Positions 3,503-58,068 of a stretch of 64,000 nucleotides of DNA are shown in pieces. Positions within the stretch are counted from its first letter, which is position 1, and each line of letters starts with the position of its first letter. The notes beneath the pieces are model-generated. The model was not told the origin of the DNA and made no database searches. It saw nothing but the letters and a program-made list of their open reading frames with translations. Position numbers and translations under genes: made by a program. The stretch spans positions 1 through 64,000 of the IMG/VR virus record IMGVR_UViG_3300029305_003246; one strand, 5' to 3'. The DNA is from a virus. Lineage: Duplodnaviria; Caudoviricetes.

Positions 3503-3967
3503 ATGGAATTAGAAAAATTATTAGAAGATAATAAATTTGTTGACTATGTGATTAATAGGTTCTTACCCTTCAAAATTATTTATAAGATGCTAGAAGTAGA
3601 CTATAATGATAGAGGTAATAACTTCTGCATTTTCCACGATAATTCAAACACGCCATCTGCGAGAATTTATCACAATGATAATGGCGATAGTTTGTATTGT
3701 TATTCAGAAGGTAAGTCCTACAAACCTTCACAGGCTTTCAGAAGAGGTCTTATAGGCCATCGTATCGAGTCTATAGCTTATAATATTTTAAAACAATTCG
3801 ATGAAACTCAAGTCCAAGCCTTATTAGATGAATTCGGTGTAGGTCTAGATATTAAGCCTACTTTTACCGAAGATGAATTATCTACTCTTAATAAGTTTAA
3901 AAATAGTGAAGTAACCGTTCATGAATTTAATAAATCTTTAATAAAAATATTGTATTTTGGAGGGTGA
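3503..3967 (+). CDS. primase-type CHC2 zinc-binding domain protein
   Basis: CIFHDNSNTPSARIY...YCYSE; ATG at 3503 fits the AAGGAGG RBS. Confidence 0.65.
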   Translation: MELEKLLEDNKFVDYVINRFLPFKIIYKMLEVDYNDRGNNFCIFHDNSNTPSARIYHNDNGDSLYCYSEGKSYKPSQAFRRGLIGHRIESIAYNILKQFDETQVQALLDEFGVGLDIKPTFTEDELSTLNKFKNSEVTVHEFNKSLIKILYFGG

Positions 3968-4287: not shown

Positions 4288-6522
4288 ATGGCCGATTTTA
4301 CTTACACTCATTATTGTGGGTATAAAAAGATTAATCCAGAGTGGAATAAAGATTTAAAGACTATATTAGTTCGTAACTATAAAGAATTAAAATATCTATT
4401 ATTTGATAAATATAAAGATTGTAAGTTCGCAGGGTTCGATACTGAGACTACAGGGTTAGACCCTCAAGCGAAAGATGCCGATTTAGTTGGTTACTCTTTC
4501 ACTTATGATGGTAAAAATGGTTATTACGTTCCAGTTAATCATATGGGATATAAAACTTTAGATGAAACTGATGAAGGTTATAACGATGATGAGTATTTTA
4601 ATTTAGGACCTAATGCTTTTAATTTATTCTATCAAAAGATGCAAACTCATACGAAAACGTTTTTAGCAAATATGATGTTTGACTATAATTATTTAGAGTA
4701 CGTTGGTGCTAAATATGGATATGATTGGAATATGGGTAAATGTCCTTATTATGATATATTTGTTGGATTATTCTTAGCCGATACAAACGTTCCTTTCCCT
4801 AACTTAAAGAAATCTGAGGCTCAATACCTTGGTTGGAATAGGGAAAACTTCGAGGCTACATTAGGTGATTATACCAACTTCGCATATGTCCCTATAGAAA
4901 TGAGTTATCAATATGCAGGATATGATGCTTTAGGGACTTACAATCTAGCACCTATTTCATTAAAATTCTATAAAGAGGCAGGACTTAGTGGTAAACTTGA
5001 TAATGAATTCTTATATGTATTAACTCAATTCTTAAAAAGAGGAGTTCGTTGCGATGTAGATTTAGCAAAGAAAACTCTTAAGGAGCAAGAGGATAGACTT
5101 CTAGAGTTACAAAATGAAATATGGGGTATATTCGGTTATCAATTTAATATAGGGTCAGGTGCACAATTATCTCAAGCATTAACTTCTATAGGCTTTGATA
5201 CAGGTCAACGTACGAAGTCAGGAGCTATGAAAACAGGTATGTATGAGCTTACTATGGCTAATGAAAAACGTGATGAACCTCATCCTATAGTTGACTTAAT
5301 AATAGAATATAAAACTTTAGCAAAATCAATTTCATCTTTCGCAGGTAAGATGGTTGAAGAAGGTGAAAGGTTCTCTGATAATGAAATTCGCTATAACTAT
5401 ACTACATTTAGAGTTCCTACGGGTAGACTTGCATCTTCAGGCGATGGTAAAAATAAATATTTCGCAACTATAAATGTTCAAGCCTTACCGAAACCTCACT
5501 CTAAAATGTGGTACGTTCATCCAGTCGACCCAAGTAATCCTACTTACAAGCATAGTGATTCCGATTCTATTATTTTAGATTGGAGGTTCTCTTTAACTGA
5601 TAAGTCAGATTATATGACTGAGGCTCTAGACCCACATTACTCTATAAGAAATATGTCGTTACCAGATGAAGGTCATTATTGGGTATCTATGGACTACTCA
5701 GCACAAGAGTTAAGAGCTATAGCAAACTTCTCTAATATACCATTTTGGAAGGATACTTTCATAAATGGTGGTGACCTTCACGAAAGAACGGCAAAAATGA
5801 TATGGGGTGAAGAGAACTATAATCACGACTTAAGAAAAAGAGCCAAAGGTGCGAACTTCGGTCTATCTTATGGAATGGCTTATCAAACAGCAGCAGAGAG
5901 TTTCAAATTACCACTTGAAGAAGCGAAAGAGCTTGTCGATGGTTGGTGGTCAGTATGTAAGGAACTAAAACAATCTCAAGATGCAGCAATTCGTAAGGCT
6001 AAAAAGACTGGAACTGTATATAACTACTTCGGTAGACCTAGAAGAGTTAAAGCCTACTTTGATTCTGCAGATAGACGTCAAATAGCTTTCGGTGAACGTA
6101 CTGTAAAAAATACAGTTATACAATCTGTAGGAGCCGACTTATGTAAAAGAGCTTGTATTAAGTATTACAAAGAGATGTGCCTTAATCCTAAATATGCAGG
6201 AAAGCATAGATTCTTATCTACTATCCACGATGAAATCAATATATCCGTATCTTATGAAGATAGAGACTTATTCTATGAAATGGTAAGAAAATTCCATGAT
6301 ATAATGTATGTTAAAGTCCCAGGATGGGATGTACCATTTGCAGTTGGTATAGAGCTTGGAAATCGTTGGGGCGATTCATTCGTATTTAAGTACGATGAAA
6401 ATAATAACCTTGTACCAGATATGTTCAAGGTACAACCTAAGAAAGAAGAACCTAAAAAAGAGGTTAAAAAGGTAGTTAAAAAAGAAGAAGTTGAGGATTT
6501 CGGTTTCGATATTTCCTTCTAA
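4288..6522 (+). CDS. polA: family A DNA polymerase with 3'-5' exonuclease domain
   Basis: FDTETTG and YAGYD (exonuclease), TGRLAS, DYSAQELR (motif A), RKRAKGANFGLSYG (motif B), IHDEI (motif C). Confidence 0.95.
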   Translation: MADFTYTHYCGYKKINPEWNKDLKTILVRNYKELKYLLFDKYKDCKFAGFDTETTGLDPQAKDADLVGYSFTYDGKNGYYVPVNHMGYKTLDETDEGYNDDEYFNLGPNAFNLFYQKMQTHTKTFLANMMFDYNYLEYVGAKYGYDWNMGKCPYYDIFVGLFLADTNVPFPNLKKSEAQYLGWNRENFEATLGDYTNFAYVPIEMSYQYAGYDALGTYNLAPISLKFYKEAGLSGKLDNEFLYVLTQFLKRGVRCDVDLAKKTLKEQEDRLLELQNEIWGIFGYQFNIGSGAQLSQALTSIGFDTGQRTKSGAMKTGMYELTMANEKRDEPHPIVDLIIEYKTLAKSISSFAGKMVEEGERFSDNEIRYNYTTFRVPTGRLASSGDGKNKYFATINVQALPKPHSKMWYVHPVDPSNPTYKHSDSDSIILDWRFSLTDKSDYMTEALDPHYSIRNMSLPDEGHYWVSMDYSAQELRAIANFSNIPFWKDTFINGGDLHERTAKMIWGEENYNHDLRKRAKGANFGLSYGMAYQTAAESFKLPLEEAKELVDGWWSVCKELKQSQDAAIRKAKKTGTVYNYFGRPRRVKAYFDSADRRQIAFGERTVKNTVIQSVGADLCKRACIKYYKEMCLNPKYAGKHRFLSTIHDEINISVSYEDRDLFYEMVRKFHDIMYVKVPGWDVPFAVGIELGNRWGDSFVFKYDENNNLVPDMFKVQPKKEEPKKEVKKVVKKEEVEDFGFDISF

Positions 6523-47829: not shown

Positions 47830-48156
47830 ATGAATGATATAAAAAAGGGTGATATACTATTTGTAAACTTTGGTGAGCAAGAAGGTAGTGTCCAAAAGGG
47901 AAAAAGATATGCTATAGTAGTGAGCAATAATGTAGGTAATAAATACAGCACGACTATAATGGTAGTACCAACCACGACTAAGAAGAAAGCTAATCTCCCT
48001 ACACATTTTAATACTACTATTGAAAGGGATAGCACTATACTATGTGAGAATATAATGACTATATCTAAAGACCAAGTCATTAGGAAGTATAATACTTTAA
48101 GCAATGACGATATTAAGAAGCTTAATCATTGCTTAAAGGTAGCGATGACTTTATAA
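47830..48156 (+). CDS. mazF: PemK/MazF-family endoribonuclease with no adjacent antitoxin
   Basis: KKGDI.FVNF, GSVQKGKRYAIVVSN..GNKYS, VVPTTT, LCENIMTISK. Confidence 0.9.
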   Translation: MNDIKKGDILFVNFGEQEGSVQKGKRYAIVVSNNVGNKYSTTIMVVPTTTKKKANLPTHFNTTIERDSTILCENIMTISKDQVIRKYNTLSNDDIKKLNHCLKVAMTL

Positions 48157-56050: not shown

Positions 56051-56193
56051 TAAGAAGGTTAATTAAATAAGTAATCAAGTTTAGGTAGGACTTCAAGTCA
56101 AGTCCATAGATTTCCTCTAGGGTGTATGATTACTTATTACCTTCTTAAGTTGAAGGCGACCTACTTGTCTAGGTCAGAGATTACCCTAGAGGA
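56051..56193 (+). ncRNA. candidate pseudoknotted small RNA
   Basis: stems 56051-59/56139-47 and 56066-77/56127-38; loop 56113-23 complementary to 56183-93; begins just after TATAAT 56038-43. Confidence 0.55.
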
Positions 56194-56292
56194 CGTAAGA
56201 AAAAAAGTTCAAAAGTTGGTATCAAATTTAAGATATCAACGTATAATAAGAGTATAGAAGTTAAAAATTAAATATTTCAGGAGGTAAACCCT

Positions 56293-56685
56293 ATGAAAAC
56301 TATAGTTGAATTAAAAAATGATATGATGGAAGTATTCGAACCTATGACTAAGGAAGAAGTTGAAATGTTATGTGGTGACGACTTCGGTAAGTTATTAACT
56401 ATAGAAGCAAATACTACTTACCTTGAAAATGAAAGAGTTATAGTAGTTGCCGATGGTACTTTCTACAACTTAAATAGAAACGATTTTAATAAGTTCAGAA
56501 TAAATACTCTTGAAGGTAGATGTTTCACTTATACTGATTATAAAATGCACAATAATCTAGATGACGCTTTCGAATTCTTAGGTTCTGCAGGTGAAAATGT
56601 AGTTGTAATAACTAGAAATTTATTCCAAGATGAAGATGGCGATTTTACTGAATTAGTTTACTACACTACTACACTTGAGGGATAA
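56293..56685 (+). CDS. hypothetical acidic protein, paralog 1
   Basis: shares LENER, YNLNR.DF..FRIN..EGR.FTYT and VVVITRN.FQDEDGDFT with 57082-57480. Confidence 0.75.
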   Translation: MKTIVELKNDMMEVFEPMTKEEVEMLCGDDFGKLLTIEANTTYLENERVIVVADGTFYNLNRNDFNKFRINTLEGRCFTYTDYKMHNNLDDAFEFLGSAGENVVVITRNLFQDEDGDFTELVYYTTTLEG

Positions 56686-56737
56686 ATAAATGAAATAATT
56701 AGTTCACTTTTAAGTAGCTAAAACGTATATAATATTA

Positions 56738-57037
56738 TAGGGCAGGGTGGTCGATTTAGATTCACCCGTAAGTCCCACCTAATAGATAGTACACACGAAG
56801 CCTATACCATCCTCGAGTTGATGAGGGTGGCAAGCTGAATAAGGGTGTGGCATATAAAGTGGGCAGGGAGTCGATTTAGATTTACCCGTAAGTCCCACAC
56901 ATAATTGATAGTACCTTCCACGCCTATGCATCGCACGCGGAACAGGGAGAAGGTCGATAGATTTTGGATAGTATGGGATAGCCGATTTAGGTAAGTCCCA
57001 TCATAAGGGTGGAGCCGATTTAGGTGTACCACCCGTA
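56738..57037 (+). ncRNA. GC-rich repeated-hairpin RNA (4x C-GAUUUA-G loops)
   Basis: two ~70-nt imperfect direct repeats plus two shorter hairpins with different stems and an identical loop; promoter motif at 56702-56733. Confidence 0.6.
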
Positions 57038-57081
57038 CATATTACAAGTTAATATGAATTTATTTTAGGAGGTAAGTCCTT

Positions 57082-57480
57082 ATGAAAAATATAGTTGATT
57101 TAAGAAATGATATGTATGAAGTATTTGAACCTATAACTATGGAAGATTATTATAATCTAAATGTTAAAGACCTTGGAGCTTTAGTTACAGTTGAAACTAA
57201 TGCAGGAAAATCTTTCCTTGAAAATGAAAGATTAGTAGTTATGGTAGGTAATAAAACTTATAATCTTAATAGGGATGATTTTACTCACTTTAGAATAAAT
57301 GCTTGTGAAGGTAGATACTTTACTTATACAGGGCATAAGTTGTTCAAAACTTTATTTGATGCCGTTCAATACGGGGAAGTTCTTAGAAATGAAGTTGTTG
57401 TTATAACTAGAAATATCTTCCAAGATGAAGATGGTGATTTTACTGATGTTTGGTATTGTGCTTGTACTTTAGAAGCTTAA
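57082..57480 (+). CDS. hypothetical protein, paralog 2
   Basis: paralog of 56293-56685. Confidence 0.75.
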   Translation: MKNIVDLRNDMYEVFEPITMEDYYNLNVKDLGALVTVETNAGKSFLENERLVVMVGNKTYNLNRDDFTHFRINACEGRYFTYTGHKLFKTLFDAVQYGEVLRNEVVVITRNIFQDEDGDFTDVWYCACTLEA

Positions 57481-57557: not shown

Positions 57558-57977
57558 ATGGAAAATAAAACTATATTTGAATGTTTAAAAGAAGCTTGTT
57601 CACGCTCTACTCTAAATATGTTAGATATTAACCCAAATTATTTCTTTGGTGAAGTTGTACCTTACCCAATTCCATTCGACGATGGCGATATACTTGATTA
57701 TATAAGTTCTTTAACTGATGGATTTATGGAATCTGAATATAAGATGGTTCTTTATAACGGCACAGTAACTAAGCTAGATATTGATATGCAGGATTGTATG
57801 ATTGATACTGAGGATATCGAATGTTATCCTTTAGCGATATTAGAGTCTTATGAAGAAATGGTTCGCTTATGTTATAGCCAAGGTCAAAAGGACTTCGTCT
57901 ACTTAATATCTAAAGATTACGACGCTAATGATGATACTACAACTTATAGCCTATCTAGATTATTAAAGATAAAATAG
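57558..57977 (+). CDS. acidic hypothetical protein
   Basis: GGAGG RBS; followed by terminator AAGCCC-TTCA-GGGGCTTTTT. Confidence 0.6.
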   Translation: MENKTIFECLKEACSRSTLNMLDINPNYFFGEVVPYPIPFDDGDILDYISSLTDGFMESEYKMVLYNGTVTKLDIDMQDCMIDTEDIECYPLAILESYEEMVRLCYSQGQKDFVYLISKDYDANDDTTTYSLSRLLKIK

Positions 57978-58068
57978 AAGCCCTTCAGGGGCTTTTTATT
58001 TTACTCAAATTTACATAGTTCATCATTCCCACTTCTTTCGTTTAGTATACCAATAAAATAAAAAAGGA

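What the first reader, a model, noticed from the sequence alone, without database searches (positions are those of the whole stretch)
56700..57085. Noncoding RNA presenting four identical GAUUUA hexaloops between two paralogous genes
Seen: a ~300-nt GC-rich island with its own promoter (GTTCA-N17-CGTA plus TATAAT, 56702-56733). CGATTTAG occurs four times (near 56752, 56872, 56983, 57016), each at a hairpin apex. The stems differ but stay complementary: GGGTG/CACCC, GTGGG..GGG/CCC..CCCAC, ATGGGA/TCCCAT, GGGTGG/CCACCC. A fifth hairpin has a GATA loop. GTAAGTCC follows three of the loops and recurs in the SD-ATG spacer of the downstream gene. Inference: an invariant loop on variable stems is the signature of a multivalent protein-binding RNA, as CsrB/RsmZ are for CsrA. 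It could be a sponge or decoy for a host RNA-binding or defence protein, or the RNA partner of the flanking ~130-aa paralogs. I do not recognise it as a described family.
Basis: partly seen in the sequence, partly recalled or inferred. Interest (0 to 1): 0.82.

Follow-up and report, generated by a model that had tools for sequence, protein, structure and literature searches.

The report
Phage RNA with four identical loops
A 300-base GC-rich non-coding stretch in an uncultured 135-kb phage most likely folds as RNA into four hairpins with the same six-base loop, which suggests a docking platform for an unknown protein. It is real and fits no described RNA family, but it has been seen only in this one phage and its function is untested.

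Summary
CGATTTAG occurs four times in 56752-57023, each at the tip of a stable hairpin. The three most stable GATTTA-tipped hairpins of the whole 135-kb genome lie here. This is also the genome's only non-coding GC-rich island.

A phage promoter motif found five times in the genome sits directly upstream. No terminator separates the island from paralog 2, so the island is a 5' leader, and perhaps also a released RNA. The hairpins are clearly more stable on the + strand because they use G-U pairs.

There is no match in Rfam, no tRNA and no credible ORF. The phage has no integrase, serine recombinase, reverse transcriptase, CsrA or Hfq.

No homologue was found. The nearest relatives (three JGI contigs) have one paralog and lack both paralog 1 and the island, so covariation could not be tested. 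The flanking paralogs are acidic and occur without the RNA, so they are poor candidates for its partner.

My best reading, at about 0.4, is a multivalent protein-binding leader or sponge.

An unexpected lead: the core GTGGTCGATTTAGAT is also the unit of phased direct repeats beside rumA and tRNA integration sites across Clostridia. The link to the phage is unproven.

The scan had already flagged this same stretch in overlapping windows of this genome.

The parts
56700..56733 (+). Class B phage promoter: TAGTTCAC, 16-nt spacer, CGTATATAAT. The -10 hexamer TATAAT is at 56728-56733. The inferred start is about 56740.
   Evidence: The motif occurs 5 times in the genome against 0.21 expected. The other four copies are followed by an SD and ATG within 20-60 nt. 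The generic sigma-70 scan does not pick it up.
56740..56778 (+). Hairpin h1. Outer GGG/CCC stem, internal loop CA/GUAAGU, inner 8-bp stem with one bulged U, hexaloop GAUUUA (56753-56758). It starts at the inferred 5' end.
   Evidence: -13.9 kcal/mol, z -2.5. The minus strand gives only -9.0, z -0.55. Loop unpaired with P 0.99.
56807..56830 (+). Central 8-bp hairpin CCAUCCUC/GAGGGUGG with an 8-nt loop that lacks the motif.
   Evidence: -12.1 kcal/mol, z -3.5, 0 of 200 shuffles as good.
56859..56898 (+). Hairpin h2, a duplicate of h1 (a 29-nt block is 97% identical). Outer stem GUGGG/CCCAC, the same internal loop, hexaloop GAUUUA (56873-56878).
   Evidence: Repeat family D2. -11.8 kcal/mol, z -1.75. 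Loop unpaired with P 0.94 or higher.
56950..56965 (+). Weak hairpin h5, AAGGUC/GAUUUU, with a GAUA loop. It looks like a degenerate copy of the motif that has lost UU.
   Evidence: -3.2 kcal/mol. Only partly formed in the ensemble.
56973..57001 (+). Hairpin h3. AUGGGA/UCCCAU stem, internal loop UA/AAG, apical GCC/GGU, hexaloop GAUUUA (56984-56989).
   Evidence: -12.1 kcal/mol, z -3.7, 0 of 200 shuffles as good. Loop unpaired with P 1.0.
57007..57034 (+). Hairpin h4. GGGUGG/CCACCC stem, internal loop A/GUA, apical GCC/GGU, hexaloop GAUUUA (57017-57022).
   Evidence: -13.9 kcal/mol, z -3.2. It is the most stable GAUUUA-apex hairpin in the genome.
57062..57084 (+). Ribosome-binding region and ATG of paralog 2. 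It contains AUUUUAGGAGGUAAGUCC, a near-copy of the 3' half of h3 (GAUUUAGGUAAGUCC).
   Evidence: The 10-mer AGGTAAGTCC occurs only at 3709, 56989 and 57070 in 135 kb. No terminator lies between the island and this site.
56293..56685 (+). Paralog 1 (130 aa, pI 4.2). It is absent from the related contigs.
57082..57480 (+). Paralog 2 (132 aa, pI 4.6). It is the orthologue of the single gene in relatives (74-86% identity).

Best explanation
The island is transcribed from its own early-type phage promoter. It is the roughly 340-nt 5' leader of the paralog 2 / 139-aa gene transcript, and it also lies inside read-through transcripts from paralog 1.

As RNA it folds into a string of independent hairpins. 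Four of them hold the single-stranded hexamer GAUUUA on a 3-bp cap (GUC/GAU or GCC/GGU) above an asymmetric internal loop and a G/C-rich stem.

I infer that these four units are repeated docking sites for one sequence-specific RNA-binding protein of the host or the phage. The protein is not identified. Several copies bound to the leader would control translation or stability of paralog 2, whose ribosome-binding region carries a fifth, unstructured near-copy (AUUUUAGGAGGUAAGUCC). If the RNA accumulates, it would also titrate that protein away from other targets.

Shown: the sequence, the predicted folds, the strand bias, the promoter recurrence, the lack of coding capacity and the lineage-specific presence. 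Inferred: transcription, protein binding, and the direction of the regulatory effect.
For: - All four motif copies sit at hairpin tips, with loop-unpaired probability 0.94 or higher.
- They include the three most stable of the 220 GATTTA-centred hairpins in the genome.
- Hairpin z-scores are -1.75 to -3.7 on the + strand against -0.55 to -2.0 on the - strand, which is 3-5 kcal/mol weaker there because of G-U pairs.
- The whole island gives z -2.16 on the + strand and -0.90 on the - strand.
- The stems differ but stay complementary, and the apical pair changes on both sides between h1/h2 and h3/h4.
- The promoter motif occurs five times against 0.21 expected. Elsewhere it is followed by an RBS within 20-60 nt, so the island is a 300-nt insert between promoter and RBS.
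- There is no terminator before paralog 2.
- It is the only non-coding GC-rich island in 135 kb.
- There is no ORF, tRNA or Rfam family.
- The 10-mer AGGTAAGTCC is shared by h3 and the RBS of paralog 2 and occurs only three times in the genome.
Against: - This is a single genome. No homologue turned up in IMG/VR, GTDB genomes, phage or plasmid collections.
- The nearest relatives lack it, so neither conservation nor independent covariation is shown.
- The four units descend from internal duplications, so shared loops may be ancestry rather than selection.
- The whole-island z-score is modest.
- No candidate binding protein was found. The phage has no CsrA or Hfq, and the flanking proteins are acidic.
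Confidence: 0.4

Rival explanations
1. A structural leader with no specific multivalent ligand. In this reading the hairpins act as a 5' stabiliser or processing and insulation module. h1 sits right at the inferred 5' end, which in Firmicutes blocks 5'-exonucleolytic decay. The hairpins could also separate the paralog 1 and paralog 2 mRNAs. Alternatively, they are a near-neutral product of local duplications of an RBS-containing segment. The identical loops would then reflect common descent only.
For: - The units are internal duplicates: families D1-D5, with h1/h2 97% identical over 29 nt.
- The 3' half of h3 resembles the RBS of paralog 2.
- The element is dispensable in the closest relatives.
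- h1 begins at the predicted start site.
- A second, unrelated structured insert lies behind the neighbouring promoter at 56060-56200 and is also missing from relative L004. This suggests the lineage tolerates such inserts.
Against: - After duplication the stems diverged strongly (AUGGGA/UCCCAU against GGGUGG/CCACCC against GGGUG/CACCC), while the 8-13-nt loop core stayed identical in all four copies. That asymmetry is not expected under neutral decay.
- A stabiliser needs one 5' hairpin, not four with the same loop.
Confidence: 0.27
2. A DNA-level cluster of binding sites. The core (G)GTCGATTTAGAT would be read as double-stranded or single-stranded DNA by the same unknown protein that recognises the phased direct repeats of this core beside rumA and tRNA integration sites in Clostridia. 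The phage island would recruit or decoy that protein.
For: - The 15-mer GTGGTCGATTTAGAT of h1 (56747-56761) is identical to the consensus unit of 2-4 direct repeats with a 27-30 bp period, found in more than 50 Bacillota loci.
- Those arrays show no conserved RNA structure, so they are probably read as DNA.
- They sit next to large serine recombinase genes and rumA stubs. This is a published integration hot spot (PMC4120198).
Against: - The scan was seeded with the phage motif. Only about four extra bases (GTGG) match, and only in one of four copies, roughly p 0.03 post hoc.
- Spacing in the phage is 120/111/33 nt, not 27-30.
- A DNA site gives no reason for non-homologous flanks to be self-complementary, for G-T pairs to favour one strand, or for a promoter to fire into the array.
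- The phage has no serine or tyrosine recombinase.
- The bacterial element is absent from the phage and plasmid collections.
Confidence: 0.12
3. An RNA-RNA device. The four loops (CGAUUUAG) would pair with a complementary stretch (CUAAAUCG) in a host sRNA, tRNA or mRNA. The island would act as a sponge or antisense regulator rather than a protein platform.
For: Identical, highly accessible loops of 6-8 nt closed by stable stems are the geometry of kissing-loop regulators.
Against: - No phage transcript carries the 8-nt complement. CGATTTAG never occurs on the minus strand of the 135-kb genome, whose ORFs of 100 aa or more in the window are almost all on the + strand.
- The host is unknown, so host targets could not be searched.
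- A 6-nt A/U-rich loop gives weak pairing.
Confidence: 0.07
4. A partner RNA of the flanking paralogs, forming an RNP or working like a type III toxin-antitoxin pair. The repeats would neutralise or assemble with the 130-aa proteins.
For: The layout of promoter, repeats and small gene recalls ToxIN-type loci, and the genes are duplicated around the RNA.
Against: - The paralogs are acidic, with pI 4.2 and 4.6.
- They have no Pfam, PHROG or PDB relative.
- Relatives keep the gene with no RNA.
- The repeats are neither tandem nor identical.
- There is no terminator between the repeats and the gene.
Confidence: 0.05

Closest known systems
CsrB/RsmY/RsmZ sponge RNAs and CsrA-bound mRNA leaders (for example glgC)
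   Same: Several hairpins show one short invariant single-stranded motif. A further copy overlaps the ribosome-binding site of the regulated gene. Both cis (leader) and trans (sponge) modes are possible.
   Different: The motif here is GAUUUA within YCGAUUUAGRU, not GGA. No Rfam Csr/Rsm model matches, and there is no CsrA gene in the phage. The element has four sites and is specific to one phage lineage.
Conserved intergenic hairpins of phage early transcripts (T7 RNase III sites, SP82/SPO1 Bs-RNase III sites) and Firmicute 5' stabiliser hairpins. This comparison is from my own knowledge.
   Same: Repeated hairpins of similar shape with an asymmetric internal loop, inside early polycistronic phage mRNA. 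The first hairpin sits at the 5' end.
   Different: The stems here are only 9-13 bp, short for RNase III. Conservation lies in the apical loop rather than in the stem or internal loop. All copies are clustered in one 300-nt leader.
Type III antitoxin RNAs (ToxI, CptI, TenpI) and phage pseudo-ToxI
   Same: A promoter followed by repeated RNA units and then a small gene. A phage-borne RNA with repeated units could in principle counter a host system.
   Different: The units are not tandem, not identical and not 34-45 nt. There is no terminator, and the downstream protein has no ToxN/AbiEii signature and exists without the RNA in relatives.
Lambda nut (boxB) and HK022 put antitermination RNAs
   Same: Promoter-proximal hairpins in a phage early transcript that act in cis through a loop-specific interaction. 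A strong terminator lies at the end of the unit (57976-57996).
   Different: There is no boxA or GNRA-like boxB pentaloop. There are four copies instead of one per operon, and no identified N-like protein.
Phased direct repeats next to rumA-stub and tRNA-stub integration sites of serine-recombinase elements in Clostridia (undescribed in the literature I could search)
   Same: They share the core GTGG(T/C)CGATTTAGAT, which matches h1 over 15 nt and h2 over 12 nt.
   Different: They are direct repeats with a 27-30 bp period, have no flanking complementarity and no conserved RNA fold. They lie in bacterial chromosomes beside recombinase genes. The phage has none of these features.

Membership tests
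Any Rfam 15 family | Covariance-model score at or near the gathering threshold | tested here: not met
   No hit at gathering in the whole window. No hit with E up to 10 inside 56700-57085.
tRNA / tmRNA / tRNA-like | Cloverleaf detected by ARAGORN or the Rfam tRNA model | tested here: not met
   No genes in the window or in the whole 135-kb genome. No Rfam tRNA hit.
CsrB/RsmZ-type CsrA sponge | GGA (A(N)GGA) motifs in hairpin loops | tested here: not met
   The loops are GAUUUA and none contains GGA.
CsrB/RsmZ-type CsrA sponge | A cognate CsrA protein | tested here: inconclusive
   No CsrA gene in the phage. The host is unknown.
Type III toxin-antitoxin (ToxIN/CptIN/TenpIN) | Tandem, near-identical 34-45-nt repeats, then a terminator, then the toxin gene | tested here: not met
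   Spacing is 120, 111 and 33 nt with diverged units. There is no terminator.
Type III toxin-antitoxin (ToxIN/CptIN/TenpIN) | The downstream protein is a ToxN/AbiEii-like endoribonuclease that needs the RNA | tested here: not met
   No Pfam or PHROG hit. Relatives carry the gene without the repeats.
RNA anti-CRISPR (Racr, solitary CRISPR repeat units; PMC10651486) | Sequence and fold mimic the CRISPR repeat of the host's system | not testable with these tools
   The host and its repeats are unknown. No Rfam CRISPR-DR model matched. The four stems differ from each other, which a repeat mimic would not need.
Phage attP with arm-type sites | An integrase or recombinase gene in the genome | tested here: not met
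   No PF00589, PF00239 or PF07508 match in the 135-kb record. CheckV estimates the record as 67% complete, so absence is not absolute.
Retron msr/msd or other RT-linked RNA | A reverse transcriptase gene | tested here: not met
   No PF00078 match.
Clostridial att-adjacent phased repeat arrays | 2-4 direct repeats of the core at a 27-30 bp period next to a rumA or tRNA stub and a serine recombinase | tested here: not met
   The core is shared. The period, the context and the recombinase are absent in the phage.

The most novel reading that the evidence does not exclude
The phage RNA would display, in single-stranded loops, the recognition core (GTGGTCGATTTAGAT) of an unidentified protein that binds phased repeats beside the rumA and tRNA attachment sites of serine-recombinase elements and prophages throughout Clostridia. 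The island would then be an RNA (or hairpin DNA) mimic of a DNA site, used by a lytic phage to titrate a factor of resident integrative elements or of the host.
Probability: 0.06. Interest if true: 0.85.

Novelty: new variant of a known kind. Interest (0 to 1): 0.5.

Why it matters
If the loops do bind a protein, this would be a new phage-encoded multivalent RNA in an uncultured, AT-rich, Firmicute-type phage of about 135 kb. Almost nothing is known about RNA-based regulation or counter-defence in such phages.

The element is compact, with four well-defined hairpins and one obvious mutational test, the hexaloop. It appears to have been gained together with a gene duplication, which gives a natural comparison between phages with and without it.

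The side observation may matter more widely. A 13-15-nt core repeated at a 27-30 bp period beside integration hot spots in many Clostridia points to an unrecognised accessory site of serine-recombinase elements.

Tried and rejected
Searches for relatives of the RNA, all negative or chance:
- blastn against phages and plasmids.
- Three motif scans of IMG/VR. All hits were single chance matches or coding repeats.
- BLAST against 400 sampled genomes of the class of Acetobacterium.
- The earlier-findings index.

Protein-anchored searches:
- The paralog family is tiny: 16 clusters and 6 representatives.
- It is absent from IMG/VR and from isolated phages.
- Three JGI contigs were retrieved, and they lack the island.

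The ENA/Logan contigs of the other relatives, including a 127-kb one, could not be read.

Readings rejected:
- tRNA or tRNA fragment.
- Any Rfam family.
- Coding region, including stop-codon recoding and the two minus-strand ORFs.
- attP.
- Retron.
- CsrA or Hfq partner encoded by the phage.
- Similarity to the neighbouring structured region 56060-56200: alignment score 19 against 18 +/- 2.5 for shuffles.

Structure of paralog 2: the AlphaFold model is confident (pLDDT 91), but it has no Foldseek hit in the PDB and a best VIA-align Z of 4.4. A language-model lead to phi29 SSB scored 0.80, which is chance level, and Pfam did not confirm it.

Leads left untested or weak:
- A remembered resemblance of GAUUUAGA..ACCC to the 5' end of Leptotrichia Cas13a repeats was considered. 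The 3' half that forms the Cas13a stem is absent. I treated it as chance and did not test it.
- The phage MazF was considered as a partner nuclease. GATTTA is not depleted in the genome (220 copies) and the gene is 8.6 kb away, so nothing supports the idea.

Full report
**Setting.** The window is the first 64 kb of a 135,413-bp IMG/VR virus record with direct terminal repeats and 31% GC. All but two of the window's ORFs of 100 aa or more are on the + strand. There is no tRNA or tmRNA anywhere in the genome. The finding lies in a run of small, acidic, unannotated genes that are driven by recurrent phage promoters and are followed by a sigma-factor gene.

**Observation.**
- CGATTTAG is at 56752, 56872, 56983 and 57016.
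- GTAAGTCC is at 56768, 56888, 56991 and 57072.
- Repeat analysis shows two modules of about 120 nt (h1 and h2 share a 29-nt block at 97%), followed by two short units 33 nt apart.
- Folded alone, the four units give -13.9, -11.8, -12.1 and -13.9 kcal/mol, with z-scores of -2.5, -1.75, -3.7 and -3.2. A motif-free central hairpin (56807-56830) gives z -3.5.
- In the ensemble of the 347-nt putative transcript, the GAUUUA bases are unpaired with probability 0.94-1.0.
- As a genome-wide control I forced every one of the 220 GATTTA sites into a loop. The three most stable enclosing hairpins are h4, h3 and h1.
- The reverse strand folds 3-5 kcal/mol worse per hairpin (z -0.55 to -2.0), because each stem uses G-U pairs. 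The whole island gives z -2.16 on the + strand and -0.90 on the - strand.
- The island is the only non-coding GC-rich stretch of the genome. All others encode Gly-rich or collagen-like repeats.

**Promoter and transcript.** The proposed promoter belongs to a motif class, TAGTTCAY-N16-19-CGTTATATAAT. The class has five copies (20764, 41802, 45544, 52199, 56700) against 0.21 expected in Markov shuffles. In the other four copies a Shine-Dalgarno sequence and ATG follow within 20-60 nt. At 56700 the 300-nt island sits between the promoter and the RBS of paralog 2. The -10 hexamer ends at 56733, so the inferred start is about 56740, which is the first G of h1. No intrinsic terminator lies between paralog 1 and the island, or between the island and paralog 2. 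The first strong terminator is at 57976-57996. The island is therefore a 5' leader and also an internal segment of read-through transcripts. Whether a separate small RNA is released cannot be told from sequence.

**Not coding, not a known RNA.**
- There is no + strand ORF of 30 aa or more.
- Reading TAG or TGA through opens at most 63 codons on the + strand.
- The two minus-strand ORFs have no Pfam or PHROG relative.
- Rfam 15 gives nothing at gathering thresholds for the whole window, and nothing with E up to 10 inside the island.

**Comparative evidence.**
- Paralog 2 has relatives at 74-86% identity in metagenomes only.
- The whole family has six representatives among 1.8 billion proteins.
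- Three JGI contigs could be read. They show the same gene order: a 138-aa gene, one paralog, a 137-aa gene, the sigma factor and an 88-aa gene. They have a single paralog, no paralog 1 and no island.
- Paralog 1 keeps the RBS and first codons of the relatives' single gene, while paralog 2 keeps its body. So paralog 1 plus the island look like one acquired or duplicated module.
- No copy of the island was found in IMG/VR, in phage or plasmid collections, or in 400 sampled Clostridia genomes.

**Internal evidence for selection on structure.** The four units are paralogous. h3 and h4 look like h1/h2 with the lower part of the inner stem removed. Since their duplication, three things have happened:
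- The 8-nt core CGAUUUAG has stayed identical in all four.
- The pair just below the closing C-G pair changed on both sides (U-A in h1/h2, C-G in h3/h4).
- The lower stems have become unrelated in sequence but remain fully complementary.

This is what one expects if both the loop sequence and the hairpin shape matter. With four related copies in one genome, though, it is suggestive rather than statistical.

**The partner question.**
- The flanking paralogs have pI 4.2 and 4.6.
- They have no family or solved-structure relative.
- Relatives carry the gene without the RNA.
- I therefore rate an RNP or toxin-antitoxin reading at about 0.05.
- The phage has no CsrA or Hfq.
- It does encode a PemK/MazF endoribonuclease at 47842-48141, but nothing links that gene to the island.

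**GTAAGTCC and the RBS.** GGAGGTAA(A/G)CCCT(T)ATG is the commonest RBS context of this phage, and paralog 2 has a one-base variant of it. The recurrence in the spacer is therefore not special in itself. Still, the 10-mer AGGTAAGTCC occurs only three times in 135 kb, and two of those are 81 nt apart, in h3 and in this RBS. Either the short units arose by duplication of an RBS-containing segment, or the RBS is a fifth, unstructured site for the same ligand. The second option is the basis of my cis-regulatory model.

**An unexpected lead.** A scan of 185,579 species genomes for two copies of the motif 10-40 nt apart returned more than 50 Bacillota loci. In these, GTGG(T/C)CGATTTAGAT is the unit of 2-4 direct repeats.
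- *Family 1* has a 30-bp period. It lies 123 nt behind the stop codon of rumA/rlmD, or behind a 45-nt rumA stub that follows a serine recombinase gene. Variable cargo lies beyond it.
- *Family 2* has a 27-29 bp period. It lies behind a tRNA 3' stub and a terminator.
- The rumA site is a published hot spot for serine-recombinase elements (PMC4120198).
- RNAalifold finds no conserved fold in family 1, so these arrays are probably read as DNA.
- Earlier notes of this scan saw the same arrays in other genomes.
- h1 matches the unit over 15 nt. Because the scan was seeded with the phage motif, only about four extra bases count, and only in one copy (roughly p 0.03).
- In the phage the motif sits in hairpins, at irregular spacing, behind a promoter, in a genome without a recombinase.
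- I keep a DNA-level reading at 0.12 and the more exotic site-mimic reading at about 0.06.

**Verdict.** This is a real, unusual and unclassified structured element. It is most probably an RNA leader with four equivalent loop sites. It is specific to one phage lineage, and its function is inferred from architecture alone. Interest is moderate at 0.5. The design is striking and easy to test, but there is no conservation, no expression data and no partner.

Noticed in passing
L258:3365-3673 (-), L209:3464-3772 and 5473-5752 (-), L281:87-396 (+) and about 30 further loci: A conserved arm of about 280 bp lies behind rumA/rlmD, or behind a 45-nt rumA stub that follows a serine recombinase gene. It occurs in many Clostridia. 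The arm holds a terminator and 2-4 direct repeats of GAGTGGTCGATTTAGAT at a 30-bp period plus a degenerate last unit, followed by variable cargo. RNAalifold finds no conserved fold. The function of the repeats is unknown.
   Followed up: partly
L274, L288, L291, L253, L261, L280, L206, L251: A second array family has the same core: GTGTG(T/G)(C/T)CGATTTAGATGCA, two copies 27-29 bp apart. It lies behind a tRNA 3' stub and a terminator. A conserved block of about 130 nt follows, and one stem in it covaries (GTTAAAAG/CTTTTAAC against GTTGCAC/GCGCAAC). It has no Rfam match.
   Followed up: partly
window 56060-56200: A second structured non-coding insert lies between two class A promoters (56036 and 56240). 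It has a 10-bp long-range stem, CCUCUAGGGU/ACCCUAGAGG, and folds at -40 kcal/mol. It is absent from relative L004, where the two promoters are about 50 nt apart. It is unrelated in sequence to the island.
   Followed up: partly
window 50031, 56036, 56240, 58960 and genome 64527: Class A promoter motif, GGTATCTTTTCAAGAAA..AACGTATAATAGAAGTATA, in five copies. Together with class B (20764, 41802, 45544, 52199, 56700) it suggests two temporal or sigma-specific promoter classes in a phage that encodes its own sigma factors.
   Followed up: partly
window 47842-48141: A PemK/MazF-family endoribonuclease gene (E 1.6e-23) in the phage.
   Followed up: no
L281:48-120: Group II intron domain V/VI (Rfam RF00029, 54 bits) ends exactly where the rumA-stub arm begins. 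The intron therefore sits at the same hot spot that the serine-recombinase elements use.
   Followed up: no
window 56270-56330 against L004:1105-1160: Paralog 1 carries the RBS and first codons of the relatives' single gene (ttcaggaggtaaaccctatgaaaactatagttga). Paralog 2 is the closer orthologue over the body: 83% against 53% identity. This suggests that a divergent copy plus the island recombined in at the 5' end of the gene.
   Followed up: partly
window 57082-57480: The paralog family gives a confident AlphaFold model (pLDDT 91, pTM 0.84). It has no Foldseek hit in the PDB with E of 0.001 or better, and the best VIA-align Z is 4.4. It may be an undescribed small alpha/beta fold restricted to this phage group.
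   Followed up: partly
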